From Laetmonice hystrix (Eukaryota), in NCBI GenBank assembly GCA_965235115.1, contig OZ249436.1:14138001-14202000 (forward strand): a stretch of DNA of 64,000 bases. The letters run 5' to 3'. Below are positions 1-55,500 of this stretch, piece by piece. Position 1 is the first letter of the stretch. Each line of letters opens with the position of its first letter. The notes under the pieces are model-generated. The model had not been told where the DNA came from and ran no database searches. It was given only the letters and a program-made list of their open reading frames with translations. Position numbers and translations under genes: made by a program.

Positions 1-3000
1 GGAAACAACAACTCATAAAGATCTTCTTTCACCTCAGTTGTGGGCAAGAGTAACTGCCTTTTGCCTTTTGTATGGTCAGAGTGTACTGATGTTACAGAGC
101 AAAACCGGCCCACTAATAATGTCGTTTTAAGGACCCATTAGTGTCTGAAACTACAGTGCACTGGGAATTCCCTGTGAAATCACAGTCCTCTGAAAGAGGC
201 TCCTCTCTGTGTGTTCTCCTAACTCTCGGTGGGAGCTTGGAGGAAAAATATCCAAAGCATATAATCAAGAGGTTGGGATTAATATTCGCTCTAGACTTCG
301 GTCATTATCAACACTACACAAATCGGTACCGCTGTATTGTATTACGTTTTTGACACCCGATATTCCTTATCCGTGAACTCTATTAATTGTATTTGCGATA
401 TTTCTTTAAAACCAGCGGATTGGTCCATGACTTCAAAAGCAAATTCCTCACGAACGTCCTGCTTTTGAATGGGGGGTCTTTAGGAAAGAAAGCTAGATCA
501 CAGAAAGCAGATGACGTTTCAGTTTCATAAGAATAACGACCCTTTTTTGATTGAACAGTTCAAGTACAGCATGTACAAAACCTGAAAACATCTAAAAATG
601 GGATTATTTTATAGGGATTTCCTTTGTAGAAGATTGAGTTGTGTTATTCTATACTAAAATTGCTCCAAAATATGTGCCACAGCGACATCCATGCCTCATG
701 ACGTCTGTCACCTTTGTGCCCGTTCATTGTCTGCCATTGTCTTCCTTTAAAGAGAGCGACACAAGAGTTACGGGGTAAAATATCCGTAGTAGGATTCGAT
801 GAAATATGGATTAAACCATTTTAGGATTTAAATTATTCCAAAGTGAAGTTTCTTTTTAAGTGAAGTGAATCTCAAAGCTTATATAATAATACAATTAAAA
901 AGATAAACTTTTTGGAAATGATGCTTTGTCATTATGCATAAGGGAAATTCGGCAATTATTTTCTGACGTCGAAAGTTTGTAACAGATCTATTGAATATAT
1001 AGCCAGGGTAATATGACAATAAGAGTTGACGTTGTAAGTTTTCAAAATGCTTTTGCACCACTGACTAAATGCACTATCAAGATTCAAGAGACAGCGATAT
1101 TAGTTGTCAGATCAGCTTACATAAGTAAATAGTCTGACAGGAATATTTCAACATGTTATGCATTGTTCCCTGTTACTCTAAGTACTTTCCCTCATGCCGG
1201 GCGCAGTTATCAGAGCATTGTGTTCTGTTATCCGACAGAACACATTTGCTTCCTGTATGAAAAAAAGGAGGAATTCCCTTTGCAGTTGTAAAGGGTAGGG
1301 CCAGCAAGCAATACTAAATATGTTCACTGTGAAATGAAGCTCGCTTCCTGTTGAAATGCCTACCAGAGTCACTTTTTTTTCACCAAAGGACCTCTGCTTC
1401 GAGGTTGTGTGTAGCCTTTGTGGAATGTTGGGACATTGATAAAATAAGGACTTGCTCGGAATGGGTCGCATGTAAACCCTTTGATTTGTGAAGGCCAGCA
1501 TAATTGTCAAGAGACAGCAGGAGCATCAATTAGTACTGTATAGAAATAATTTTGCTAAGGATCTTTTGAGCATAGTTTATTTGGAATATTTTTATAATTC
1601 ATGCTGACCCGATGCCTGCCTTTGTCTGACAATGACAGAAGGTTAAGAAAATTATCTTTCTAAAGAATCAGATGTAAACGAAACCGTTAGGATTTCCTGA
1701 GTTTTTAGAACATCCTCCTGTGTTTTGTTCTTCCCTCAGCTCTGCCCAGATGGGCCTTGACTATCGTCACCACAGTGGTACAAGATGTTTACGAGTAATT
1801 ATCATTTCACACCTTTTCACCAATTGCCTCAATAATGTTTATTGATTTCGCTATCAGAGTTAGGTGAACCCTCAACACTAAATGCGTCTTTCAAATTCAT
1901 TGGAAGAAAGTATAGATGTTAACCTGATAAGACACGTGGCGTTCTGCATCCTAATTTTTACCCCTCCCAGAAAAAGTGCATGCATACACTAGACAGGACG
2001 GAGCTTTAGTCACAGGAAAAGATTTTGTTAGGTTTTTATTTATTAGAGTTACATAATAATGCTTTTAGAATTTGTCTAAATAATATATCTATGGTATAAG
2101 CTCATGTAGGTTTGTGGAGTTAGAAGGGTGAGCCTCGTCCGAGATGAAACTCAGAACTCCAGGCTTTCTCAATCACCTTCATGGTCACCAGCTGTGCTTT
2201 CAAACCTGCACTTGGAGAGAAAACATCTCAAAAAATGCCTTTGAGGTTTTATTGCGAGAACCAGTAAGCGATGGACACAGATTGTCATTGAGGTCTAGCG
2301 TTCTGTGCCGTTGTCAGGTCGGCCTGTAGCAATGTGTTATATCTTGACTCTGGGATGTTTAGTTGGTGGGAAACTGGCGGGGAGAACCCCATCTCTGAGC
2401 AATATATCACACAATGCTGACCTGAACGGTTTTATGTGTCTCCAGGAGGTGTTCGAGTCTTTGCTGTGGTTCACACCAACATGTGATGGATTAACTTTAG
2501 GTGTAAACCTTGGATCTTTTAAGAAAAGGTCGAAAGCAAGCAGATTCCTAACTTTCGCGATGAATCTTCACTGCAGCTTGAGGGGCGGATCTAGAGGGGT
2601 CATTGCCGGAGGGGGGGGGGGCACCGGGTGTTGCCGGGGGGGGGGGGGGCCACCAGGCCTGGGCGAGCGCCGGAGGCCCAATTTCCGAGGAAATATGAAG
2701 GGGATTCTCAGTTTTGCCGGGGGGCACAGTTTCTGTACTAATATTCGTAAACAAACATTCGATGGACTTCTATCCAGAGTGCGGCTAGAATTTTAAATAT
2801 TTTAAGGTACCGTAACTTTACTTTATTATTGTTTAACGCAAGATTCGTGAAGGTTTCTTTGGTTTCTTTAATTGTGTTTACTGGATTTGTTTTGGAAGCG
2901 TAGAAAGATCACAACGTTTTATTGGCGTCAGACTCCGCAAGTTGGAATGTTAATTGCCAGTTCTGTGTAATTCCGCTTTTTTTCTGGTGTTGCAGGTAAT

Positions 3001-5494
3001 CATTTACAAGTAAAGGTTTTGTTTGAAAGATACTTCTGAGATCACAACAAAAAGGGCAGCCTGAAAGTGTTGAGAACGACAATGTTTACTAGAGAAGGCA
3101 TGTAAACAGCTATTATCTTGTGATATCTGGCATGTATCACCTATAGGTCCAATCTGCAGAAAGCAACACTCTACTCTGAGTATTCTTGGGCATATTCTTT
3201 AAGAATGGAAATTCAGGATGTGGCATAAACATTCCAAGTTTTAAGTTTGATTGATTTCTCTCATGCCAGTCACGCTAACCGTCCATCGCTCTTTGAAAGC
3301 TTTTTGGGGCCTTTTAGCCCATTACAGCGGGAAAGACTGAGAAGAATAAGCTAGTAATATTGTAGGATCCCATCTTCATATCTCTTTTGTACAGATACAT
3401 TTAAACGGAAGGCGTTTATAGGGTACTTTAACTGATTACCGTGACGTTTTTTGAATAAGTAGAACCCATAAGTTTGAGTTTGTCCACGAAATTAACATGA
3501 GTGCAGAGCATGAGCTTTTCCATTGTAACATTTGTTAGACCTAGGTAGAGGCATGTTCCGCTTCTATGACAGAAACCGAGAATTCCGTGACATGTTTTAA
3601 AGTAAACTTTCACTTTGCCATAGAATTATGTACAAAAGAAAAAAGGGACTAAGACAGTAAGAAAATGGAAGGAGTGTGGAATCATTCGGCGTTGACTTTG
3701 AACAAGACAATATCGAAATTTAGAATATATGAAAGTGAGTGAGATATATCACATCATTAGCCGGTGTTGTCTATTCAGACAACGAATGGTTTAGTAGGAG
3801 ACAAGGTCTGCCTGACATACCTGTCGTGTCTCCCGAGTGTGGGGATGCGGGACCATAGCATGTTAGTACCAGAGAGTATGGGCAGCACATGAACCACAGC
3901 CGTTATATTGCACAGGGTACACCCAATCTCAGGCCTAGACACCTGCAAGTTAGCAGTGCTGGCAGTCACCCAGAAGGTAGGGAGTTGCTCCATTACAGTA
4001 AATACCAGAGGCACCACCTTGGGTGTTGGAGACGGAGAGGGTGTATTATAGTGATAGAAGCCGTCTTAACTCCAGACATGCCGGCCTGTATTCAGTTTGC
4101 ACATGGCTGCCGCCAGCCAGTCAGACAGAGGCCTTCAAACACCACTTGTTCAATGTAACATTATAACATTGTTTCTGGTCCTGTAGGTGTGCTGCCAACC
4201 CTGGCAGGGACATTCTAGATACTACTGCGTAGATGAGATTGAAACATCATTTGATCAAGTGGCTGGTAATCGGATCTGCATCCAGTTGTGCGCCTGCATT
4301 TAAAAAGAAACCAATGGTCAGCCAAGAAACACTGTGGTAGACTCAGGACAATTTCGACTATCTTGGCCCGTGCCAAAATAGAGTTGCTAGGCTACATTAG
4401 CTTAACCTAAGTTGCCACGGACAGTTCATAACCATTAACTTACTTGGATTGGAAGCAGCAAGGCTGTTATTTTCCCGAGGTCACATCAAGTTTGGGTAGG
4501 ATGTGTGATATAAGCACCTCCTCCCATCTCAGCATGAGCTCCAAGTGGACCCCCCTGGCCGGCCGACTAATCTTCGCCCTTGTTCTTCTGGTAAGTAAGA
4601 AAACCTCAATGCAAGGCTCATTTACATGAAGGCATTGTTGGTTGGAGTGTTGGCATCCACTCCCAAATGTTATGTCATCTGTCTGTGGAGTGCCCGACTA
4701 CTGTGTTTATGCTCACCCATTGAGGCTGGCCCCTTTTTCCCAGTGGACTGTTGCAGGGGAACTCTAAATCTGTTTATTAGGACTAAATGCATGCCATAAC
4801 TGTTGGCAGGAAGAGTGGGGTGGAAAGAACCACTTGTTGAAGATGGAGGTCATGCTGAGCACCAACTTGCAGCCCTGCCCATACTCAGGGACACTTCAAA
4901 ACATGACAAACTAATTCCATACTTGCTTCAGATCCTGGGGCGATGTGTGTGAGCTTGCTGTCAACGCCTGCTACTCTCAGAGTGGTCCTCGAAGTGTTTC
5001 TCTGTCTTTCATAATGAAGTGCACATTTTATTCAAGGGTTGACGGTGGGCGTGGTACTTGTGGAACATACAAATGAAGAAAGGCGCTAGGGCCAGGTCTA
5101 TAAAGGCAGCATATTTCACTTATTCATGCTTCAACCTTTTTTGCGAAACTGTCGGTTCTGTTTCTGTTTAGTATTACGTCAAAATATTTCGTCACGTCGC
5201 AGAAAGATTTGAGGAAACCAGTTCACACAGATTCTGCAACTATTATTTACGCTTAATGTCATTGCAGGTTTGGCTGAGGTGGTGGTTCCTTTACTTAACA
5301 TAGACGTGTTTAACGTCCTTCATGTAGGATGTTTGAAACTTTTCCTTTTCGTAAGCATACTTTTAGTACATTATTTTTCAATAATAGGCACATAAGACAC
5401 ATTAACTCCAGTTTGGGGAAGATGTGTATAAAATGAATCTTCACAAACAGTCCTTCAAAAGATAATAATAATTCAACTATAGAAGTTAGCAATC

Positions 5495-40200: not shown

Positions 40201-40706
40201 ACCATTATTGTAAGGTTTTGTGAGAAATGGACGGGAAGCAGTTGCAAATGAGTTTACATTTCATGAATATTATCGCCTATATGATTTACATGTCTCGTAC
40301 TATCAGTATTTTCATCTTATGTAAATGGAGATGTAATGAAATTACATTCAAATTTCCTCGGGGATATATAATCTGAATATATAACTCGAAAAACAACGTT
40401 ATCTACTTAAAAAGCTATCAGCTTGCCTGCCATGACAACGTTGTTTACATCGTCGTGGGGACAGTCGTCAGTACGTTACAGTCGACTCAGAAAACTATCA
40501 GTATCTTCGAGGAAGGACAGCTTTGGCTGCTGTGTGACTAATTTAGAGACATTCAGAGACTATATTATATATATCGAAGATAGATATAAGATTGTAGGAA
40601 CATCGACGTATGGTAATTTTTGGGAGTTATTTATGGAAATTAATATACAGCGAGGAACTTTTGAATGATCTAATTTGTCCTAGCAAACGAACATTCCCGC
40701 CCTTTA

Positions 40707-40998
40707 GGGGCATACCATATGATACGTGGGGGGGGGGGGGGGGTTATGGTTGTTTTTAACCAAAATAATCTGTTCACCAAACACAGGGGGGGGGAATAGT
40801 TTGTTCATCAAACTACATAAAAGAATGTTTGTTCCTTATGTAATAAAAATATCTAGTATAGTCGAAATGGAGAGAAAAAAGTTTGATTAATGGTCAAGCG
40901 AAAAAAAAGATAGCTTTGGCCTAGGGGCAAAAATAAGTTTGCTCATGAAGAGAAACCATAGCCCCCCCCCCCTCCCCCGGTATCAAATGGTCCGTCCC
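40707..40998. mobile_element. MITE with TIRs and TTA target duplication (PIF/Harbinger, Tourist-like)
   Basis: Left end ggggcataccatatgatacg-(G)n-ttatggtt matches the reverse complement of the right end gggacggaccatttgatacc-(G)n-ctatggtt. TTA at 40704-40706 and 40999-41001. Confidence 0.75.
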
Positions 40999-41130
40999 TT
41001 ACGTAATATGATATGACGACTTAAGTTCTGAATCTAGGACTGCTTTATGATGTACTAATTAATCCCTCGACTTGAGGCATCAAGTTACTCTTTAGATCCT
41101 TTCTGACAGAGTGCTTTTGTACGGTTTGAC

Positions 41131-44120: not shown

Positions 44121-45226
44121 AAGGATGCGAAAGTCTATCATTGAATTAAACTGTGAACAAGAAATCGAATGATCAAATGTCGGTATGGCAACCAGCCACA
44201 GATTAGCAGATATCAGCCTATATAATTCTATGCTAAAATGTCTCCTCCTGAACCGCTTGCACAGTGCTGCCGCCATGCGGAAAAGGCGGCGACAAGGTGC
44301 CTCCATTCGGAAAACCTCGGCCCAACTTCCGGTCAGTCCCGAGGTGGGCCGAATGAAGGTACCTCATTACATTTAGGTCAATTCTATGACATTGTCGGTC
44401 TGGCTCAAGACGTTGTTTCATTTTTATATTCGTGATATTGCATTGTATAATGACGCACTGCAGGTGACCCAACCGAATTACATCATACTTTTGGGATTTC
44501 GCTTTTCCTATTTGTGTGACCACGGCCATTATAGGTACACTGCCACAATATTTTAAAGGCCCCCAGAAGTTTCATGCTTACTTAATTGAATGCATGCCTT
44601 GATGCATTTGCTCAAATCCCACTCTACAATCTGTTTTACATTTTTAACAGTTGCATCCTCAATTGTTAAAGGCAAAATATTAAACGACGCGCATGTTATT
44701 TCAACTTAGATAATATAGAAAATATAGTTCCAACATAAGAGATATAGTATAAGTGGTATAAGCCATGAACGAAACAATTCGACGGACCTTCAATTATCCT
44801 ATATTATTTCCAATTTTCAGAAGGTAGGTGGTATTTTTCATTGTCGCCTGCCTGCCAGCTCATTTCCCAAGGCGTAAAAAAACATTATGTATAGAGGACT
44901 ATGTGATTACAGATGTGTTACAGCACTCACATTTGCTGATTATGAAACGATCTTACCGTGAGGATGTATCCCAAAGCCGTGGGCGGTAGTCTCACACGGG
45001 CGAATTTTTATTCACACTATAGCATAACGTATCAGTGCCGATAAAACGCGATTTATTCGCTCTTTTTTGAAATATTGATTTGCAAAGATTGTAGCAGCAT
45101 TTCAGTCTCACCACTTGCTAATGAAGTTAGATAGAAAATTCCTCCGAGGGTGCTGTCAGGCTCACGGCGATTATCATTATTACGTTACACGAAAATCCTT
45201 CCAGCAAGCGACAGGCGAAGTCTTTA

Positions 45227-45558
45227 TTTCAGCACAATAACTCGCACTCCCAATTTGTAGAAGTTTTATTCCACTAAACATTGCAGTTTCTCGCTGTTGA
45301 ATATTAATCCATGTTACACATTGTCTTGTCCCCCCCGAAACTTCGGGAAAGGGTAAACCGATGCGGGAAATCTGCTCAAGTGATTTAATGTCAATGTCCT
45401 TCTCGCCCTCCCGTGGCTACGGGAAAGGGCCAGGATATAACTTTCTTGTCCATAACGTAAGTCTTCTTAGTTCTAGTTCCCCGTGGCTACGGGCAGAACC
45501 GAGAACCATCATTATTTGTTGGGCCCTACGGCCAAACAGGTGACCAAAGGAACCTGGG
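45227..45558 (-). repeat. Split direct repeat B2 (332 bp, 3' terminal)
   Basis: Identical by eye to 45768-46099 (offset 541). The ORF track gives the same 60-aa translation at 45361 and 45902. Confidence 0.97.
45265..45270 (-). promoter_or_regulatory. Candidate AATAAA polyadenylation signal near the element 3' end (also at 45806-45811 in B1)
   Basis: Plus-strand tttatt reads AATAAA on the coding strand, about 40 nt before the end of repeat B. Confidence 0.4.
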
Positions 45559-45580
45559 AGGCGCCGGGGATGGAGGCGGG

Positions 45581-45770
45581 CAGCAACCTGTTCACGTGCC
45601 TTCTCAACTCACACTGGCTTTCAAACTTTGCCCCTTAGCAACATCCCGCGCCAGTCTGCGCACGCACCTTATCCAGACTGGCGCACCTTATCCAGTTCCG
45701 GCTAAGACACACTCAACTTCGCGCTCCTTGTTGTGCTGAAAATCTATTTCGTGTCACGAAATTCCTCTTT
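45581..45770 (-). repeat. Split direct repeat A2 (190 bp)
   Basis: cagcaacctgttcacgtgcc...cacgaaattcctcttt is identical by eye to 52332-52521. Confidence 0.97.
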
Positions 45771-46099
45771 CAGCACAATAACTCGCACTCCCAATTTGTA
45801 GAAGTTTTATTCCACTAAACATTGCAGTTTCTCGCTGTTGAATATTAATCCATGTTACACATTGTCTTGTCCCCCCCGAAACTTCGGGAAAGGGTAAACC
45901 GATGCGGGAAATCTGCTCAAGTGATTTAATGTCAATGTCCTTCTCGCCCTCCCGTGGCTACGGGAAAGGGCCAGGATATAACTTTCTTGTCCATAACGTA
46001 AGTCTTCTTAGTTCTAGTTCCCCGTGGCTACGGGCAGAACCGAGAACCATCATTATTTGTTGGGCCCTACGGCCAAACAGGTGACCAAAGGAACCTGGG
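45768..46099 (-). repeat. Split direct repeat B1 (332 bp, just downstream of the YR stop)
   Basis: Copy of 45227-45558. Overlaps A2 by TTT (45768-45770). Confidence 0.97.
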
Positions 46100-46112
46100 C
46101 CCAACATAACCC

Positions 46113-47000
46113 CTAAAACAGAAGGCGAATGTATTTACGAAAAGCGTCTGACCGCCATCTACCCAACAGACTGATCTGAGCATCTGAGTACCCCGCCCTG
46201 GCCGGTTCAGAGGCGGCTCCTATCCTGAAACTATGGCCCTTGAAATGAGTGGTGTCCATCCCACATGCCATAAAAGGCTTAAGTAAGGCAACAACCCGGA
46301 AGTATGTATACCGCACCCCTGACACTCAAAAAACTCAGTCAACAATCTAACAGGACACATCACGTGATATGAACCCAAGGCCAACTGAATCCGCCGGGGA
46401 ACCGACGAGGTACCCATGGACACCAACCCTAAACTGTATCACTGGAACACCAAACCGTATACTCGGATACCAACCCCAACTGCATCACTGGAACACTAAC
46501 CCGTAAACTGGGACACCAACCCCAACCTGTATCACATATATTAGGGTTGTTAACCGCCAACATTATACTTTATCCAATCCACCAGAGCTACCTTACAGTA
46601 CGTTACAATCCATATTGACGCTCATCACCTGCTCTCCACGTCCCGCGACGGACCAACGGTAGAATTAACATAAACTTCACCTAGCAAGTTCATTTAATTG
46701 AAAATTATCATCAGCTCAAAACATCCGTTCTAGGACGACGAACTTAGACCCTTATAGCTGTCACCTGGCTCTTAATAGCCCGAAACGTCAACCCCCCGCA
46801 CTAAAAACCAGGGATAAAACCCACTTTTAGGAAAAAAACCCTGGAAAAGCGTAAAGGTGACTACGATGATATTCTAAGGGTACCCATCAACTCGGCTATA
46901 CACAACCCATATACACACACCCAACTACCGTGGCATCCATACCCTGACCAAATCAAACAGGGATTCAGCAGTAAAACACCGCGTATACACACTGTACGTT
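46113..47000 (-). pseudogene. DIRS/Ngaro-type tyrosine recombinase, frameshifted; 5' boundary approximate
   Basis: C-terminal motifs FKGHSFRIGAAS...LLGRWRSDAFRKYIR (HxxR, W and catalytic Y) at 46113-46325. MCPVRLL lies in an adjacent frame. A weak N-terminal GLTFRAIKSQVTAI segment lies near 46750-46810. Confidence 0.9.
46418..46535. repeat. About 46-bp tandem repeat (2.5 copies) inside the YR remnant
   Basis: Unit ggacaccaaccc(t/c)aactgtatcactggaacac(c/t)aa(a/c)ccgta..., starting at 46418, about 46465 and 46511. Confidence 0.8.
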
Positions 47001-47574
47001 GGTATATCTCATTGGTATATCTCTAAATCATAGTCAATCGTTCTTTCACATTAACTAGCAACATAATGTCCCCTAGTCACTAGCTGGGATGTCCGATGCA
47101 CGCGACTCCCATCCGCAGGAGTCAGCCTTGTCCGGCAGGATCGTGTCATGGTTTTCTATCCAGATTTTTCTACCTAGGGAGACACCCGCTCACTCTCACC
47201 AACTTGTCGCAGGTCTTGATTTCACCCCCTTGGGGGGCGGAATGGCCATCTGCAGCCACCCCAAGCATTCCGTGTTCCCTCCAATCGCATTGACCTCACC
47301 AGGGGCTGGGAGTCAACCCTTTCACACCGACGCCCAGACTCCTTGATCCACCAGGCGACACCTCCGTGGCACCAATCGTATTCTGTCGTCGACGACCCCG
47401 TTATCTTCCTGAAGACTATAACGAATCCAAGACCAAGCTCCATCGTTTCAGCTCATCCAATGGTCGACATGGCAATGAAAATTTAAAACAACAATATAAT
47501 ATCAATATTACCAATCATAAGGATCATTCCTTTGCCAACCCATCTGGACCCCTATTGCACCAATCTGATGACAC

Positions 47575-48160
47575 CATGGATACGCACATGTAAGAAGCCG
47601 CCCTCATTGGGATAGTATTTGCGTAATAGAACTTAGAGTCCCATTTTTACCCCAGTAATTAGTAATCCTTTGTGTGTATGGGGATAATTTTAAAGGCGGA
47701 CCTTCAGTTTTCAGTTTTTGGCATAAAGGTTCCATTGCCTATTCGTTTTATAATAGCTACAGCATCACCCAACGTAGCATATTACACAGTCTTCTCTTCA
47801 AAAGGTATGTGCTAATTCACTCTCACTGACTCCCCAAACGGATGGGACAATTTATGGATAAAGCAATACTCCCTCTGGAACTTTCTTCGGATCGAGACGA
47901 ACAAGAGAAACATGGAATTTAGGTAACTGTGGATGAGAAAATGGGCCCGCAACACGGGACACTGCCAATTCCTTTTCCCCACTTTCAGGGTCATCACCGT
48001 CATCTGCTGTTGATCCATTTCAGGGTTGGAACTTCTATATCGCAACCAAAACCCTAGGCTAAATCCCAGTTTAAGATACAAAACTTTATCGGGGCAATAA
48101 CCCGCTCTTAATAATGACTCCTTGAGTCTAGAACCTACAACTGGAGTCGGAAGTGCCAAG
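47575..48160 (-). pseudogene. N-terminal half of a DIRS/Ngaro-type reverse transcriptase; frameshifted and truncated
   Basis: Across frames: LPTPVVGSRL..YCPDKVLYLKLGFSLGFWLRY, RVAGPFSHP, DPKK, IHKLSHPFGESV, YATLGDAVAIIKRIGNG, SAFKIIPIHTKDY*LLG, KWDSKFYYANTIPM. No YxDD or RNase H motif seen afterwards. Confidence 0.85.
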
Positions 48161-48303
48161 CACACCGGAGCAATTTCTTTCTGAGCCTGCAACTGCAGGG
48201 ACTCAGTTGGCGCCACCACATGCATCTCCCCTGGACTTCCCGGTATCACCAAGGGCACTTCATGTGCCACCACTGGACAGCCTTTGGAGACCAATTGATG
48301 TCT

Positions 48304-48365
48304 GCTGCCGTCGCTGCCGTCGCTGCCGTCGCTGCCGTCGCTGCCGTCGCTGCCGTCGCTGCCGT
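48304..48365. repeat. (GCTGCCGTC)x~7 minisatellite at the gag C-terminus
   Basis: Perfect 9-bp units, reading (GSD)n in the gag frame. Confidence 0.95.
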
Positions 48366-49330
48366 TCCAACGATGGAATTGAAGACAGTGGCCTATTGGG
48401 ATCCTGGAGGTCGGTCTTGGCCGTTGCACTCGCGGATGACCTGATTCCCCCGTCTGGACCGCCCCCCTACACATGACATATAAACTGGCATCCAAGGATA
48501 ATTCAACATTCAACTGGCCCCACATTATTGAACCATCTGTCACACCCCTTCTGAAGCTTTCATCGCACATTAACCAGTCGCCACCAGACGCTGCCACCTT
48601 TTTGACATACTGAGCATGGGAGATCAGAGATCATGACAAGTGTAGGTGGACCTTAATCAACATGGCATGGAATCGAGCAAACGCTTGGTCCCACTCCCCC
48701 ACATTCATAGCCAGTCTGGGAGCGTCTTCACCAGCCTCAACGTTGGACGAACCCGTCGCCTACGACCTTGACAACAACGAGGATAATTCCACATATTGAT
48801 TCTCCTAAATCTTATTTTTTAAGGAGGCTGAGACACTGGAAACCAGGGACGTTGATATTGTATTTCACTCACTACGGATTGAGCTCCCCCCATGTACCAG
48901 CAAACCAGTCAGCGTTGACGCTGATGATGGACCTTGAGGTGGAATCGTCGCAGCAGCCGACGCTGGCCCCGATGCTGAAGCTGAAGCTGCCTGTAGCCGA
49001 TGGATGAGTCGATGGCAACAGCACTTGCTGGGCGTGAAGATTCTGCGGCCCTAAAACCTGAACCGGATGTCTACCCCCCTGTACGCCTGTAGCTGCAGGA
49101 ACAACAAGGGGATCTGGCGTATTGCGTTCCAACACCGGCCTCAGCTGGTGCCTAAAGGCCAACACTGCCTCAGTCACGTCCTTCTCGACCGCCTGAAACA
49201 GCAGAATGGTTTCCAGCGAATTGTCATGACGGCCTGCCTGACGCGAAGCCCCGGGCGATGCTGGTGGAGCTTCGAGGAGGTCGCTTCTTCTAGTCTGTGC
49301 CGGCCGAACCCTTAACAAAATCAAGAACAT
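48366..49330 (-). pseudogene. Gag-like ORF1 of the YR retrotransposon, with stops and frameshifts
   Basis: VSASLKNKI*ENQYVELSSLL, MNVGEWDQAFARFHAML, VAASGGDWLMCDESFRR...WGQLNVEL and IGHCLQFH resemble conserved DIRS/Ngaro ORF1 blocks. Confidence 0.75.
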
Positions 49331-49423
49331 TCATTAACCATTGCATTAATCCTTTATATATATCACACACCGCATGAGTAACAACACCTCGGCCTACACC
49401 ACAACCTCAAGCACATCACCAAC

Positions 49424-50322
49424 TCAATTCGCCCTGCTCAAGGCTTTCACCGATCTAATCAATACAGATCTAATACTGGTGAACAACTTAGCGTTCGCCA
49501 TGCGATTGTGATGTCAAAAATTTCCCCATAGGATTAGCATTGACAGGACCGACAGGTTTACAAAAACCAGCCTGTAGGCTGTATACTCACAATCCAACTT
49601 TCTAAACTATAAACCAAACATTATCCCAGAGTAACCATGCCAGCTATCATGTATTGTAACGTTGAATTATTAACAGCGACTTCACTGCAGAATGAAAATA
49701 TCTTAAAGTTGACTGTCACTCTTCCTCAGATGGCCATCGCAAACCAGCGAGGCTATCTGCTCCTTGTCCCGACAACGCGAATTCTCTTGAATTCTCGTGA
49801 CATACTTAGGCGCCCTATAGGCCTACTGGTGAACAACTTAGCGTTCCCATGGCTATTTAAATGCACCATCACGGAACATAAAGCCACCTGCCCCTATCGT
49901 ACGAGGACGACGCCAACACCTTCCTTCACCCGGGCATTAAAATGGTCTATCCTCGCTGAGTAGCTAATCAGGGACGGACCTCGGGTAGGTCCTCCGTCAA
50001 AAGCGGTACACACACAACCCTGCACACACCAAATTCCCCCGTGGCTCTTCTCACCACCATTATTAACCTCTCCCCCAATGGTCGCGGATGCACCTCGCTG
50101 TTGTTCGCCCCCATCATCAGGATGAGTATGTGGGGTTGATAGTCGTCCAGACAGTCCCACAGGGTTGGCGATCTTCTAAGTGGGCCTCTGTCCCTCCTTG
50201 GAAAGTCACGTCCACCTCCGCCACCCAAAGTTCTGTGAACGATGTGACTCGTCGATTTAGGTAGCTAACCGGCGAACATACGAATCGCCCATCATCAGCG
50301 CCTGTAACTTGAACTCCGCCAT
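49424..50322 (-). pseudogene. SGNH/GDSL-family hydrolase (esterase/lipase-like) ORF of the retroelement; frameshifted and interrupted
   Basis: ATG at 50322. Block I MAEFKLQALMMGDSYVRRL; block II VTFQGG; block III YQPHILILMMGANN; block V RDG[fs]HLNSHGNAKLFTS. After the insert the frame continues IRSVLIRSVKALSRAN* (stop at 49424-49426). Confidence 0.8.
49503..49823. other. 321-bp insertion into the SGNH ORF, flanked by a 23-28-bp direct duplication
   Basis: tactggtgaacaacttagcgttc(g)ccatg occurs at 49474-49502 and 49824-49851. Removing the insert and one copy restores a continuous C-terminal reading. Confidence 0.8.
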
Positions 50323-50406
50323 GACGAAACTGGCCCACTATCGCAAGGAATAATATTATAATCACCTAACATCAATTACAGTCATACATGTTAACGAATT
50401 AACCGG

Positions 50407-50510
50407 AGGGCGGGCAGGGGAGGGCAGGACAGGACAGGGCAGGGCAGGGCAGGGCAGGGCAGGGCAGGGCAGGGCAGGGCAGGGCAGGGCAGGGCAGGGC
50501 AGGGCAGGGC
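50407..50510. repeat. (AGGGC)n microsatellite
   Basis: About 15 perfect AGGGC units plus degenerate units. Confidence 0.95.
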
Positions 50511-50527
50511 AAAGCCAGGGAGGAAAT

Positions 50528-51608
50528 CCAAGTGCTGTCACCAACCATCACCATTGACAAGCACTGGCAACCAACAAGTACAAGTGGAACGCCATCTCAT
50601 GCACGTAGGCCATCTTGATGAGCGCAGAAACGGGAGGCGTCAACTCAAGCACATTGCCATCATTGCTAACACAATTACATCCGAGTGCTGTCACCAACCA
50701 TCGCCAACTTGACAAGCACCGGTGACGACCAATAAGGACAAGTGGAACGCCATCTCATGCACGTGGGCCGTATTGATGAGCGCGATTAAGGAAACGGGAG
50801 GCGTCACCTCAAGCACATTGCCATCGTTGATGAACGCAATTACATCCGAGTGCTGTCACCAACCATAGCCAACTTGACAAGCACCGGTGACGACCAATAA
50901 GGACAAGTGGAACGCCATCTCATGCACGTAGGCCGTATTGATCAGCGCGATTAAGGAAACGGGAGGCGTCACCTCAAGCACATTGCCATCGTTGATGAAC
51001 GCAATTACATCCGAGTGCTGTCACCAACCATAGCCAACTTGACAAGCACCGGTGACGACCAATAAGGACAAGTGGAACGCCATCTCATGCACGTAGGCCG
51101 TATTGATGAGCGCGATTAAGGAAACGGGAGGCGTCACCTCAAGCACATTGCCATCGTTGATGAACGCAATTACATCCGAGTGCTGTCACCAACCATAGCC
51201 AACTTGACAAGCACCGGTGACGACCAATAAGGACAAGTGGAACGCCATCTCATGCACGTGGGCCGTATTGATGAGCGGGAATAAGGAAACGGGAGGCGTC
51301 ACCTCAAGCACACTGCCATCGTTGATGAACGCAATTACATCCGAGTGCTGTCACCAACCATCGCCAACTTGACAAGCACCGGTGACGACCAATAAGGACA
51401 AGTGGAACGCCATCTCATGCACGTGGGCCGTATTGATGAGCGCGAATAAGGAAACGGGAGGCGTCACCTCAAGCACATTGCCGTCATTGATGAACGCAAT
51501 TACATCCGAGTGCTGTCACCAACCATAGCCAACTTGACAAGCACCGGTGACGACCAATAAGGACAAGTGGAACGCCATCTCATCCACGTAGGCCATTTTG
51601 ATGAGCGC
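50528..51608. repeat. 165-bp tandem array (about 6.5 copies) in the element 5' leader
   Basis: ccgagtgctgtcaccaacca starts at 50681, 50846, 51011, 51176, 51341 and 51506 (period 165). A divergent first unit starts near 50528. The unit has stops in all six frames. Confidence 0.95.
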
Positions 51609-52331
51609 GGGCAGGAACTGGCGGACCATAATACACAACATACACATACATTAAGCCTCAAAATATGCAGGCAACAGGCCTGCTAACATATATTCAATCA
51701 TATCACGGGCATCATTAAATTCATGAAGATCAACTGTCCGCACCAACCTCAACAATTTACCACGTTAATAACTAATTAATAACATAAGTGACAGGCACAA
51801 AGAACAGAATCAGTTATTTCCCTTTATAAATCACACACAAAGGGCTAGCACTGGCCGACCTTCATCGAGGTCACCCCTTCCCATGAAACGACTAAGTATA
51901 AAGACCACCCGGGAGCTCACTACCATACTCGACTCAAACGAAAACCTCCCGCACAGTACACCGTCATAACATACGCAAAAGTGTGGGTTGAAGAACCCGA
52001 CTCTCAGTAACCTGTCTTCACTACACAGGCCTTTCCGACCAATACCATACGCTATTGTGAGGGGTTAGCACACGCCACACAACGTGGCAGCCGCACCCAC
52101 TGAGTCGAGCAGGTCGTTGAGCGTCCTTGGCAACCAGTACAACAAAGAGCTAACTCTCGCTGCAATATTTCACCACAGACCGGGAGCTTACTAGGCCTAT
52201 GACCGAATTAATTGGGAAATAAAATACTTATCCGCATTTGTTCGTTGAGCAGATCCTATGAAGGCCACCGCAAATTCACTCCAATTAAAACGGCTTGGAC
52301 TACCACTGCAACTTGGCTCCCGCTCCACTCA

Positions 52332-52521
52332 CAGCAACCTGTTCACGTGCCTTCTCAACTCACACTGGCTTTCAAACTTTGCCCCTTAGCAACATCCCGC
52401 GCCAGTCTGCGCACGCACCTTATCCAGACTGGCGCACCTTATCCAGTTCCGGCTAAGACACACTCAACTTCGCGCTCCTTGTTGTGCTGAAAATCTATTT
52501 CGTGTCACGAAATTCCTCTTT
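52332..52521 (-). repeat. Split direct repeat A1 (190 bp, 5' terminal)
   Basis: Copy of 45581-45770. Similarity ends sharply at ...attcctcttt|agtgttacc. Confidence 0.97.
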
Positions 52522-55500
52522 AGTGTTACCCTGGGGCCCTTGTATCTCAACCTGGTCATGCGGTGATGCCTTGGAGAATGGTCACGATCCTTTATAGGTG
52601 TGGTCAACAGAGCTTTCATTTATGTTTGTGACATTTTACGGAAGCAGTTCGGGAAAGGCCGCAAAAGGGCACAGGGAAATGGAATATCCTTGGCTGGGAG
52701 AGTGGCCGGGTTGTATGACGGCGGTGTGCGGAGGGACCGTGGTAGCGCCGAGTGCCCCGAGTATGTCTTGGAGGTAATGACGACATCAAACTAATTGAGG
52801 CGTGCTGTGGGGAGGCCGTCCGGGGTGTTCGCGGGGAGGTTTGGGGAGTCCACCGGCTCACATAGAACCGGGACCAGCATGAGGTGACTGAGGCTGAGCC
52901 GATGGGGCTCCCCCCACCACCCACCCACCCACCTCTAACCTCCTCCCCCTCATTGTGGGCTGCTCTAGTCTGTGGGATCCAGAGATCGAGAGGTCAGCAG
53001 CATGGCGGCGCCATAAGTCTCCATCAGGTCCCTAATCCTCACTGATGAATCGTTTTCACGGTCAACGCAAAGAAACCATCTTGTTTGCTTTGACGTTATT
53101 GAACCATTTTGAACACCATGTATTTTCTGTCTGAGATATATTGTTCGTAAATTGGAGAAGATTGCCACAAATTTTTATTCTTCTGCTCTGCACCTCTGCC
53201 ACTCGAAAGTCCAAGAGCATTGTGAAATTGAATTCGTTTCGATGAAAGCTCACAAAGTAATTTACGGAACTACCAAAAGGTGAATTCAAAGGTATTTAAT
53301 TCATGCTGTTACGTTGTAAAAGTAATATCTTGGGACGGAAGAAGATCCATGATAAAAAAAACCGGGACGCAATCAGTCTGCACGAGCTCCACCAAGGCGA
53401 CAGGCATAGACTGCATTCATTCCGTGATTTGGGATTTCATGGCCTACGTACTAATTAACTGCAGTAAATGAATCAGAAGATGAAAACGAACAGCTGGGGT
53501 ACGATTGAGTACCTGGTATGCCGTTTCAAAGTGATTTCACTAGAGTAACGTAATAAAAAGAAAAGGGCATATTAGCATTTATTACCATAGCAGCTTATCT
53601 ATTACGCATAGCTTTAATCCATAGATCAATATTGAGTGTTTATCTTTCTGCCATCGTTCAGTGGTGATAAAATGCGGCAGCGTGATTTTGAACCGACAGA
53701 GTGGTGCCTTCAGTGATAAATGAGAAAGCAGCTTTGTGAACGGTAGCATCGTGTTTAAAGTTGTAACCGTCCAGGGTGGCGCTCGTCGACCTGCTACCAG
53801 ATAACGGCGCCATTTCACTCCCCACGGATTCAGTGCTATTAATTCTACCCCCTGTATCTGCCGACCTCAACCTTCATTCCGGTCATCTCGCCTTTTTGGG
53901 TCTTCCTGGCAGGATCGTGGTGGAGATCAGTGAATTAGGTACTTTATCTCTGATCACTGCCGGGAGATCAAAGACTTCCAGTCACAATTTCATCAGTTTT
54001 CGCTCCCTCCTTTCCCTTTGATTCATTTAACATTGTCGGTGTGACGGAGGACAACCCAAGTCAGTTATTATGTTTCCGTTTCTTTGATCACCTTGGCCGA
54101 GGAGAACTTCTTATTTTTCCAAGTGATGAGGAGAAATCAACATGTGTGGCATCCTTACCAATCGGTTTTGGTGACTTGAAAGATGTGATTCACAGTGCAT
54201 GGGCGCACCAAGTGGGAAAAGATGGAGTTCCTGTCAAGAATATGACTGGGAGCCTGGATAATCTTAACTCTCCCATTCCACAGTTGACGCATAGTGGCAT
54301 CCTTTGTAGTTCATTTACATCACAACATTTAAAGTACTGGCATTATAAGGAGCCTTTGCTCGGAAACCATAGAAACTAGGTCCGCCATTAATTTTTTTTT
54401 TACTTATTTGTTTATCATGACTGATTCGAATAGATGCGATTGGGTATTAAATAGAAAAAACATTAATGATAAAAGCCAACTAAAAAAGTCCATACGGATA
54501 TTCGATATGACTAACACTTTCATTTACTCTTAAAATGAATGATTACAATTACTGTATGTTTTAAGGTGGATAATTGTAGACTCATATTTGTAACAGATAA
54601 AGAAAAAATTATCTTAAATAACAAGAATCGGAACAATAATGATGCAGAGTGAACGAATGAATATTACATTAGGACATAGAACATCGACTTTTTACGGCCT
54701 CGAAAAAGCACCTCAATTTTGTCGGGTAGAAAACGTTAGTATGGCAAGATCGTCAGTGTGACAAGGATGTTCTATGTGTGGTTTATTTATGGTGATGATG
54801 TCTGACCCGCAAAGCGACCCATCAAATAACATGAGCGCGAGAGGCCACACATCCCTGAAACACCTCGTCACATGTTGATGATGTATGGCTTCAACGCTGG
54901 TGACAGGGTCAGACAAGCTTGGTGAATACCCCGGTCTCAAGGGGCTTCATATTGGAGCGCCTGAACATGTAAGGATCAGGTGTAATTAGACCCCAGAGTG
55001 AGTAGGATTAAACCCTTTACATTAGTAACTCCTACTCTAAGCCTGACACCTGGTGGCCAGTAAATCCATCAATCGGTGACAGGGCTTCCGTTCTTTCAGG
55101 GTCGTTCAATATATGAGTTGCTTCAGTTATGCAGTGTTGTATCATCAGGAGCGGCTATACCCCACCCCCGACCGAACGTAGCCATTATTTGCTCAGTGTT
55201 AGGGGACTCGGGACATATCACTTTCAACACCTTTACTTAGCTTTATTACGAATCGTGCAAATATATGTGCAGCATTGCTACTCTGAACGAACAATTTCAC
55301 ACAGATAACAATAAGCCAAGAATGCAGACACATTTCAGAGGCACTTGTTTTTCTTCTTATGTCTAGGTAAATAAGGTATACATTGCGTAAAGGAATTTGT
55401 TGGGCAAAATCATTTAAATAACTTACAAGGGATAAGAAAGGCCAATCGACCTGACATGGAAGCAATATTAGCTTGCTCGCCAGTCTTCCCCTCGGGAGCC

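What the first reader, a model, noticed from the sequence alone, without database searches (positions are those of the whole stretch)
49424..50322. SGNH/GDSL hydrolase placed upstream of gag in a YR retrotransposon
Seen: all four SGNH-type blocks (GDS, G, GxNN, DxxH) can be reconstructed, and the ORF is the first in the element, 5' of gag. Established: SGNH esterase domains occur in some LINE ORF1 proteins and some Ngaro elements. From memory, the Ngaro hydrolase ORF is described downstream of YR; this needs verifying. Inference: the order hydrolase-gag-RT-YR may mark an undescribed subgroup, with the enzyme possibly acting on lipids or membranes during particle formation.
Basis: partly seen in the sequence, partly recalled or inferred. 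Interest (0 to 1): 0.75.

Follow-up and report, generated by a model that had tools for sequence, protein, structure and literature searches.

The report
Esterase-first Ngaro retrotransposon lineage
This broken jumping gene belongs to a whole lineage of tyrosine-recombinase retrotransposons that carry a small esterase gene at the front, whereas the described forms carry one at the back; the enzyme is conserved in intact relatives, but what it does for the element is untested.

Summary
Confirmed. Window 45227-52518 (minus strand) is a Ngaro-type element with perfect split direct repeats (A1-ORFs-B1-A2-B2), an empty-site allele and a 3-base core. It is non-autonomous: RT stops before its catalytic motif and YR lacks its first half. 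The ORF at 50322-49424 is a broken SGNH/GDSL gene between A1 and gag. It is the top hit of the window for a profile built from relatives (43.7 bits; shuffles at most 20.7). In 127 related loci, gene position follows RT phylogeny. In the window's clade, 11 of 11 loci with enough upstream DNA carry an intact or nearly intact SGNH gene 5' of gag. In the sister clade, 12 of 12 carry a different SGNH subfamily right after YR, the order published for Xenopus. A third clade has none. The 5' gene has its own ATG, keeps the catalytic residues (66 of 75) and shows dN/dS of about 0.2. I found no description of this order, but two key papers and Repbase/Dfam were unavailable. The lipid role is analogy only. 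Earlier scan notes showed no such finding.

The parts
45227..52518 (-). Whole Ngaro-type element, 7292 bp, non-autonomous; TTT (AAA on the element strand) at both junctions, no longer target duplication
   Evidence: Empty-site joint 45226 to 52519 in contigs of runs X1-X3, 3 letters ambiguous; junction letters
52332..52521 (-). Split direct repeat A1 (190 bp)
   Evidence: 100% identical to A2
50526..51609 (.). 165-bp tandem array, 6.6 copies, in the 2.2-kb leader (63 ATGs in the leader)
50407..50511 (.). 5-bp microsatellite, 21 copies, just upstream of the SGNH ATG
49424..50322 (-). Broken SGNH/GDSL esterase gene of the 5'-type subfamily; own ATG 11 codons before block I
50281..50289 (-). Block I GDS (catalytic Ser)
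50100..50111 (-). Block III GANN (oxyanion Asn; family consensus G-x-N-D)
49855..49879 (-). Block V D-x-x-H, split over two frames
49503..49823 (.). Insertion of a high-copy repeat inside the last part of the SGNH gene, flanked by a 29-34 bp duplication (49474-49502 and 49824-49851)
   Evidence: summed contig depth 33,000-82,000 against about 60 in the flank, and one contig joins across it
48370..49330 (-). gag-like ORF, broken; conserved C-terminal part 48861-48370
   Evidence: 78.8 bits against a gag profile from 5'-clade relatives; next best on that strand 23.3
47593..48156 (-). N-terminal third of RT (pol profile positions 3-192 of 530); ends before the catalytic LDD at position 221; no RNase H
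46436..47592 (.). 1.15 kb of unexplained DNA in place of the RT C-terminus, RNase H and the YR N-terminus
   Evidence: No pol or YR match; no match in any fetched locus; covered at family-like depth
46113..46435 (-). C-terminal part of the tyrosine recombinase (profile positions 163-281): H-x-x-R, W and Y present, first catalytic Arg region absent
45768..46099 (-). Split direct repeat B1 (332 bp)
   Evidence: 100% identical to B2
45581..45770 (-). Split direct repeat A2
45227..45558 (-). Split direct repeat B2

Best explanation
The window holds a recently inserted but non-autonomous copy of a lineage of Ngaro retrotransposons whose standard layout is A1-SGNH-gag-RT/RH-YR-B1-A2-B2 (layout shown in relatives). 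In intact members the first ORF is a free-standing, single-domain SGNH esterase of about 190-200 residues. It is basic, starts from its own ATG and has no room for a signal peptide before block I (shown from sequence). Most likely mechanism (inferred, about 0.4 on its own): it is made as a separate cytosolic protein, binds acidic membranes through its positive surface, and hydrolyses a short or single acyl ester. This would help the Gag/RT ribonucleoprotein assemble on, or be released from, membranes, as proposed for the ZfL2-1 ORF1p esterase. It is an accessory, not a core, function. The window's copy is dead. It was copied and integrated by proteins of an autonomous partner, through a circular intermediate and YR recombination at a 3-base core (inferred from the identical repeats, the junction letters and the published model).
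For: Layout: L012, L019 and L084 have four open ORFs in this order. L093, on a 228-kb contig, has A1-SGNH-gag-YR-B1-A2-B2 with the gene inside the repeats. Clade tally: 11 of 11 5'-clade loci with at least 2.5 kb upstream of RT have it there, and 0 of 19 with at least 0.8 kb after YR have one right after YR. 12 of 12 sister-clade loci have the other subfamily right after YR. In the third clade, 0 of 23 have one upstream and 0 of 29 downstream. The window falls in the 5' clade (SH-aLRT 92-93; top identities 44% to L012, L019, L021), and its ORF fits the 5' profile, not the 3' one (35.7 bits over 177 positions against 22.7 bits over 13). Enzyme: Pfam Lipase_GDSL_2 hits all 13 intact relatives tested, 10 of them at or above the cut-off. 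An AlphaFold model of the relative L014 (pLDDT 86.5) matches GDSL/SGNH structures, top TM-score about 0.7. The family profile hits PAF-AH (E 1e-10) and the ZfL2-1 esterase 4c1b (E 7e-6). S, N, D and H are all intact in 66 of 75. dN/dS is 0.16-0.22 in the 4 of 12 pairs that are between families and have a measurable dS; 7 pairs were saturated. Net charge is positive in 92% of 75. An ATG lies 8-15 codons before block I in 11 of 11. Mobility: 100% identical repeats, empty site; RT acting in trans and trinucleotide-core integration are described for DIRS-1 (PMC7192593, passages).
Against: There is no biochemical or expression evidence. The one near-identical pair (L073/L026) has dN equal to dS (0.028/0.029). 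L015, a 5'-clade contig that appears to loop over a whole element, has no SGNH gene, and the whole third clade does without one. Unlike the ZfL2-1 domain, this protein is not fused to a coiled coil or RNA-binding part, so how it would reach the particle is unclear. Structure hits include carbohydrate and acetyl esterases as well as lipid enzymes. Most 5' loci are short-read contigs with collapsed repeats. The RT trees are 'quick' trees with SH-aLRT only and a midpoint root; the careful search did not finish. The window has a long branch (1.16) and sits in no starred small group.
Confidence: 0.6

Rival explanations
1. Origin rival A, relocation by circular permutation: the hydrolase was captured once. 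On the circular intermediate both forms have the same cyclic order gag-RT-YR-SGNH and differ only in the side of the gene on which the B|A junction lies. Re-creating the split repeats on the other side of the gene would turn one form into the other.
For: The two forms are sister clades in RT/RH and RT+YR trees (100). The repeats follow the gene in 3' elements (L089, L161, L063, L059) and precede it in 5' elements (window, L093, L084, L086, L014). The profiles align end to end (hhalign 99.4%, E 5e-22). One clade of both subfamilies is not rejected (p-AU 0.42).
Against: The free SGNH tree does not join the two subfamilies; their relation is unresolved and the bootstrap had not fully settled. Profile identity is only 21%. 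The expression signals differ (own ATG against a splice-acceptor-like site). No intermediate element was seen: the apparent double or far-3' copies in L084, L014 and L027 are best explained by looped assembly.
Confidence: 0.35
2. Origin rival B, two independent captures: two sister Ngaro lineages each took an SGNH gene from the pool shared among retroelements and put it in a different place.
For: Each subfamily is a separate well-supported clade (98/98 and 98/95) and no support links them. The same host DNA holds SGNH domains in LINE ORF1s and fused to the RT ORF of ALOG-YR elements. Independent captures of GDSL ORFs are reported for LTR, Penelope-like and LINE elements (PMC5408684, passages).
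Against: It needs two captures in exactly the two sister lineages and none in the third clade; a single origin is not rejected.
Confidence: 0.4
3. Function rival: the enzyme is a deacetylase or deacylase of a non-lipid substrate (a host defence protein, Gag itself, a sugar or an RNA-linked ester) and acts in trans as a counter-defence or processing factor.
For: It is a free-standing protein with its own ATG. The best sequence hits are acetylhydrolases, and fold hits include acetyl-xylan, sialate and peptidoglycan O-acetyl enzymes. PMC3905857 lists such substrates as possible (passages).
Against: No substrate evidence. The positive net charge fits membrane binding equally well.
Confidence: 0.3
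4. Passenger: a host gene fragment picked up by chance, with no role in mobility.
For: The window's copy is a pseudogene in an element that still moved; L015 and the third clade lack it.
Against: It is kept in 11 of 11 informative loci of a deep clade, shows dN/dS of about 0.2 between families and intact catalytic residues in 66 of 75. The window's gag, RT and YR are equally dead, so its decay says nothing specific.
Confidence: 0.07

Closest known systems
Amphibian Ngaro-like elements with Hydro-SGNH (Xenopus DIRS-53_XT, DIRS-54_XT; PMC9210276, passages)
   Same: Split direct repeats A1-B1-A2-B2, gag, RT/RH, YR and a fourth ORF with an SGNH domain.
   Different: There the hydrolase follows YR. 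Here it precedes gag. In my loci the two positions go with different SGNH subfamilies and sister RT clades, and the 5' gene has its own ATG while the 3' gene mostly starts at a splice-acceptor-like site. I had no Xenopus sequence, so equating my 3' clade with these families rests on gene order.
Three-ORF Ngaro elements (for example Cafeteria types, PMC8547959, and the amphioxus element, PMC2632668; passages)
   Same: Repeat layout and gag-RT/RH-YR core.
   Different: No hydrolase is mentioned in the passages seen; my third clade resembles these.
ZfL2-1 ORF1p esterase and other LINE ORF1 esterases (PDB 4c1b; PMC3905857, passages)
   Same: SGNH fold, upstream of the RT gene, basic; profile match E 7e-6.
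   Different: It is a domain inside a multi-domain ORF1p with a coiled coil, in elements without Gag. Here it is a free-standing gene beside a separate gag. LINE esterases from the same host DNA form a separate group.
GDSL ORF3 of bdelloid Vesta LTR retrotransposons and Athena elements (PMC5408684, passages)
   Same: Accessory GDSL/SGNH ORF with intact catalytic residues in a Gag-bearing retroelement.
   Different: Downstream ORF3 in integrase-type LTR elements; not compared by sequence here.
Cytosolic PAF acetylhydrolase Ib subunits (PDB 1fxw, 1wab)
   Same: Best sequence match among solved structures (E 1e-10), similar size, no signal peptide.
   Different: Host enzyme, about 16-21% identity in structure alignments; substrate cannot be inferred.

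Membership tests
Ngaro-like YR retrotransposons | Split direct repeats A1-[ORFs]-B1-A2-B2 | tested here: met
   A1=A2 190 bp and B1=B2 332 bp, both 100%
Ngaro-like YR retrotransposons | gag-like ORF, RT/RH and tyrosine recombinase in this order on one strand | tested here: met
   Remnants in the window; open ORFs in L012, L019, L084
Ngaro-like YR retrotransposons | No methyltransferase domain after RT/RH | tested here: inconclusive
   The region is deleted in the window. In relatives pol runs about 520-580 residues from the RT start in 54 of 59, which leaves little room, but no MT profile was run on them
Ngaro-like YR retrotransposons | RT/RH groups with reference Ngaro sequences rather than PAT or DIRS1 | not tested
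   No named reference Ngaro or PAT sequence was available; trees hold only fetched loci
Ngaro-like YR retrotransposons | Integration at a short shared core without a long target duplication | tested here: met
   Empty site with 3 ambiguous letters; TTT at both junctions
Hydrolase-bearing Ngaro as published (amphibian type) | SGNH ORF downstream of YR | tested here: not met
   Upstream of gag in the window and in 11 of 11 informative clade members; 0 of 19 directly after YR
SGNH/GDSL hydrolases | Blocks I, II, III and V with Ser, Gly, Asn and Asp-x-x-His | tested here: met
   Readable across breaks in the window; S, N, D, H intact in 66 of 75 relatives
SGNH/GDSL hydrolases | Alpha/beta/alpha fold with a five-stranded parallel sheet | tested here: met
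   For the intact relative L014: pLDDT 86.5, Foldseek probability 1.00 to GDSL structures; the window's broken copy was not folded
SGNH/GDSL hydrolases | Esterase activity | not testable with these tools
   Needs an assay
LINE ORF1p esterases | Esterase is a domain of a multi-domain ORF1p in an APE/RT element | tested here: not met
   Free-standing ORF of 176-251 residues beside gag; separate group from 9 LINE domains

The most novel reading that the evidence does not exclude
Hydrolase-bearing Ngaro elements captured one esterase gene and then split into two sister lineages by circular permutation: the terminal repeats were rebuilt on the other side of the gene on the circular intermediate. 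This turned a spliced-in last exon into a free first gene with its own start codon (or the reverse). It would be a case of gene-order evolution driven by the circular intermediate, and the repeated retention of catalytically intact esterases in three positions of YR retroelements would point to a common acyl-ester step in retroelement replication.
Probability: 0.3. Interest if true: 0.7.

Novelty: new variant of a known kind. Interest (0 to 1): 0.52.

Why it matters
Retroelements of several unrelated kinds keep picking up SGNH esterases, and nobody has shown why. This lineage offers a small, free-standing, single-domain version with many naturally intact members, which is easier to express and mutate than a domain inside ORF1p. 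Position of the gene also turns out to be a clean marker that divides animal Ngaro-type elements into 5'-hydrolase, 3'-hydrolase and hydrolase-free clades, which bears on their classification. The statement that the hydrolase is an amphibian, post-YR feature is too narrow: both forms occur in marine invertebrate-associated DNA.

Tried and rejected
No whole genome is held for the window. Searches with single broken pieces failed: none of 43 candidates for the SGNH piece, and one unrelated repeat protein for the RT piece. Viral contigs gave one false phage hit and nothing with the YR alignment. Pfam hits KDM6_C-hel, Collagen and MAX_effector on window pieces are below cut-off and treated as chance. 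Plain hmmsearch of the six frames gave only weak, though collinear, pieces (E 0.14-0.56). No RNA holder was listed, which says nothing about expression. Rfam found nothing in 45000-53000. The first splice-phase test against one third was biased, because 5' genes also scored 7 of 7; it was replaced by an in-ORF control. In that control 5' genes still show a phase excess (p 0.01) but no pyrimidine tract (4 of 11 strong sites against 17 of 73), so no acceptor is claimed for them. L084 (second copy), L014, L027 and L160 show a 5'-type gene far behind YR. I read these as looped assembly through the repeats (shown by repeats for L084 and L014; not shown for L027 and L160), not as intermediates. Whether other copies in this genome have an intact SGNH gene could not be told: most indel rows were not shown. 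Two of the eight outgroup rows labelled bacterial (L184, L186) may be host genes. The host range of the protein clusters could not be looked up, so it rests on a few names. Literature: searches found no description of a hydrolase upstream of gag in a YR element. Goodwin and Poulter 2004 and Poulter and Butler 2015 are not held, Repbase and Dfam were not available, and no supplements were read; any of these may already show the order.

Full report
1. The element. The finding lies on the minus strand inside a 7292-bp element at 45227-52518. Self-comparison shows two pairs of 100% identical repeats: A1 52332-52521 with A2 45581-45770, and B1 45768-46099 with B2 45227-45558. On the element strand this reads A1-ORFs-B1-A2-B2, the layout given for Ngaro elements (PMC9210276 and PMC8547959, passages). 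Contigs of three runs from one sample join 45226 to 52519 directly, with three ambiguous letters, and TTT stands at both junctions. So an empty allele exists and there is no long target duplication, as expected for YR integration at a trinucleotide core (PMC7192593, passages). Summed contig depth over the element is mostly 400-5000 against about 60 in the flank, which suggests a multi-copy family but is not a copy number.

2. The copy is non-autonomous. Against profiles built from relatives, RT covers only positions 3-192 of 530 and stops at 47593, before the catalytic LDD at 221. YR covers only 163-281 (46435-46116). The 1.15 kb between them matches neither nor any fetched locus. The gag-like region is recognisable but broken (78.8 bits). 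Perfect repeats around dead genes point to mobilisation in trans (inference).

3. The observation. GDS, the block II glycine and GANN can be read directly; D-x-x-H is split over two frames. Stops, at least three frameshifts and a roughly 320-bp high-copy insertion with a 29-34 bp duplication break the gene. One contig joins across the insertion, so at least one copy lacks it. Single pieces were too weak for Pfam (E 0.041) or for homologue searches. A frameshift-aware scan with a profile of their 5' SGNH genes plus database relatives (75 sequences, window not included) ranks the region first in the whole window: 43.7 bits, against 24.3 for the best place outside the gene and a shuffle maximum of 20.7.

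4. Gene order in relatives. Domain maps of the 127 loci show SGNH genes either 1.5-2.2 kb upstream of the RT start, with gag between, or within about 500 bp after YR. An RT/RH tree of 56 full-length pol rows and an RT+YR tree of 77 loci plus the window split them into three groups. Both are quick trees with SH-aLRT support and a midpoint root. In the clade that holds the window (support 92-96), 11 of 11 loci with at least 2.5 kb upstream of RT have the 5' gene, and 0 of 19 with at least 0.8 kb downstream have one directly after YR. In the sister clade (95-99), 12 of 12 have the gene directly after YR; none of its 13 loci has 2.5 kb upstream, so an extra 5' gene there is not excluded by this count. 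In the remaining 36 loci there is none in 23 upstream and 29 downstream stretches. The 50 loci without a usable RT start were left out of this tally. L012, L019 and L084 carry all four ORFs open. L093, on a 228-kb contig, has A1-SGNH-gag-YR-B1-A2-B2 and lacks RT, which independently places the gene inside the repeats. One exception: L015 belongs to the 5' clade, appears to loop over a whole element and has no SGNH gene.

5. Two subfamilies. In an SGNH tree of 54 rows, 16 5'-type and 16 3'-type proteins each form one group (98/98 and 98/95), apart from LINE ORF1 domains, ALOG-element domains and cellular enzymes. Six of the 5'-type rows were chosen by similarity and have no genomic context. The relation between the two groups is unresolved; forcing them together costs 2.5 log-likelihood units (p-AU 0.42), so a single origin is neither rejected nor shown. 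The window's ORF fits the 5' profile over its length and the 3' profile only over 13 residues. Start signals differ: 11 of 11 5' genes have an in-frame ATG 8-15 codons before block I, against 7 of 17 3' genes within 5-16 codons. 15 of 17 3' genes have a pyrimidine-rich YAG in one fixed phase just before block I, against 21 of 126 control positions inside the same ORFs; 5' genes show no such excess (4 of 11 against 17 of 73). I infer that the 3' gene is usually spliced onto an upstream exon and that the 5' gene is translated on its own. No RNA data test this. The lead to look for acceptors came from earlier scan notes.

6. What the protein is. All 13 intact relatives tested hit Pfam Lipase_GDSL_2, 10 at or above the cut-off. 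The family profile matches PAF acetylhydrolase subunits best and also the ZfL2-1 ORF1p esterase. A model of L014 (pLDDT 86.5) has the SGNH fold. Ser, Asn, Asp and His are all present in 66 of 75, and 92% have a positive net charge. Of 12 pairs, four between-family pairs gave dN/dS 0.16-0.22, seven were saturated at silent sites, and one near-identical pair was neutral. The gene is therefore kept as an enzyme by the element lineage.

7. Mechanism. Shown: layout, clade pattern, fold, conserved active site, selection. Inferred: a free cytosolic esterase that binds acidic membranes and hydrolyses an acyl ester to help assembly or release of the Gag/RT particle, by analogy with the ZfL2-1 esterase, which is active and binds negatively charged liposomes (PMC3905857, passages). 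A non-lipid deacetylase role is nearly as likely. For origin, both forms have the same cyclic order on the circular intermediate and differ in the side on which the B|A junction lies: repeats follow the gene in L089, L161, L063 and L059 and precede it in the window, L093, L084, L086 and L014. Relocation by circular permutation is thus possible, but two independent captures fit the data about as well.

8. What is known. PMC9210276 states that amphibian Ngaro elements have the hydrolase after YR, with no proven function (passages). PMC6681497 and PMC7192593 mention a hydrolase without giving a 5' position in the passages seen. PMC4157794 gave no passage on a Ngaro hydrolase among those shown, and PMC3783388 has no occurrence of 'hydro' or 'SGNH'. 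Searches found no 5' order. The two founding papers are not held, and Repbase, Dfam and supplements were not seen, so consensus sequences with this order may well be deposited. The only named animal hosts seen are an oyster for a 5'-type SGNH protein (P0092) and a limpet for an RT/YR protein (P0032). Earlier scan notes held no such finding.

9. Verdict. It is a new variant of a known kind, with an untested function: interest 0.52.

Noticed in passing
L170:4022-6880 and L171:3282-6134: YR retroelements in which an SGNH-like domain is fused to the C-terminus of the RT ORF, upstream of YR (L170 has an ALOG-YR gene): a third position for the esterase. The Pfam hit is below cut-off (E 0.00036). The ALOG paper PMC3537659 has no occurrence of SGNH, GDSL, lipase, hydrolase or esterase in its main text.
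   Followed up: partly
3'-type SGNH genes, for example L077, L088, L089, L011: Pyrimidine-rich YAG in a fixed phase just before block I in 15 of 17 (control 21 of 126), often without an ATG: probably a spliced-in last exon.
   Followed up: partly
L163:2-1147: SGNH domain fused to an RNA 2'-phosphotransferase (Tpt1/KptA) domain on a short contig; context unknown.
   Followed up: no
window 45227-52518: The insertion is polymorphic: an empty allele is present in the sequenced sample. At 45612 and 52363 the window differs from all laid contigs in both A repeats alike, as expected if the repeats are recopied from one template.
   Followed up: partly
window 49503-49823: Unidentified very high-copy repeat (depth several hundred times the flank) inserted in the SGNH gene with a 29-34 bp duplication; no Rfam match.
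   Followed up: partly
window 46436-47592: 1.15 kb of unknown DNA replaces the RT C-terminus, RNase H and the YR N-terminus; includes a short 46-bp tandem at 46418-46535.
   Followed up: partly
P0002 and L093: Other internally deleted relatives: P0002 runs from the RT N-terminal half into the YR C-terminus, and L093 lacks RT but keeps near-identical repeats.
   Followed up: no
window 50526-51609; L004, L014, L084, L093: Tandem arrays recur in the non-coding DNA next to the 5' SGNH gene: upstream of it in the window, between it and gag in the relatives.
   Followed up: no
L015: 5'-clade element on a looped contig with no SGNH gene: probable loss.
   Followed up: partly
G005 (L083-L089, L129-L155); P0035, P0037: A bacterial genome assembly holds many animal-type retrotransposons (25 SGNH matches), and two element proteins are labelled as bacterial GDSL hydrolases in NCBI: host contamination.
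   Followed up: no
L173:1640-2188: A divergent SGNH gene directly after YR that groups with neither subfamily and nearer to LINE domains, without support.
   Followed up: partly
L092, L096, L100, L112: Head-to-head inverted duplicates of RT/YR within single contigs, possibly assembly artefacts.
   Followed up: no
window 40706-40999: 46-nt inverted repeat arms 202 nt apart, possibly a small non-autonomous DNA element.
   Followed up: no
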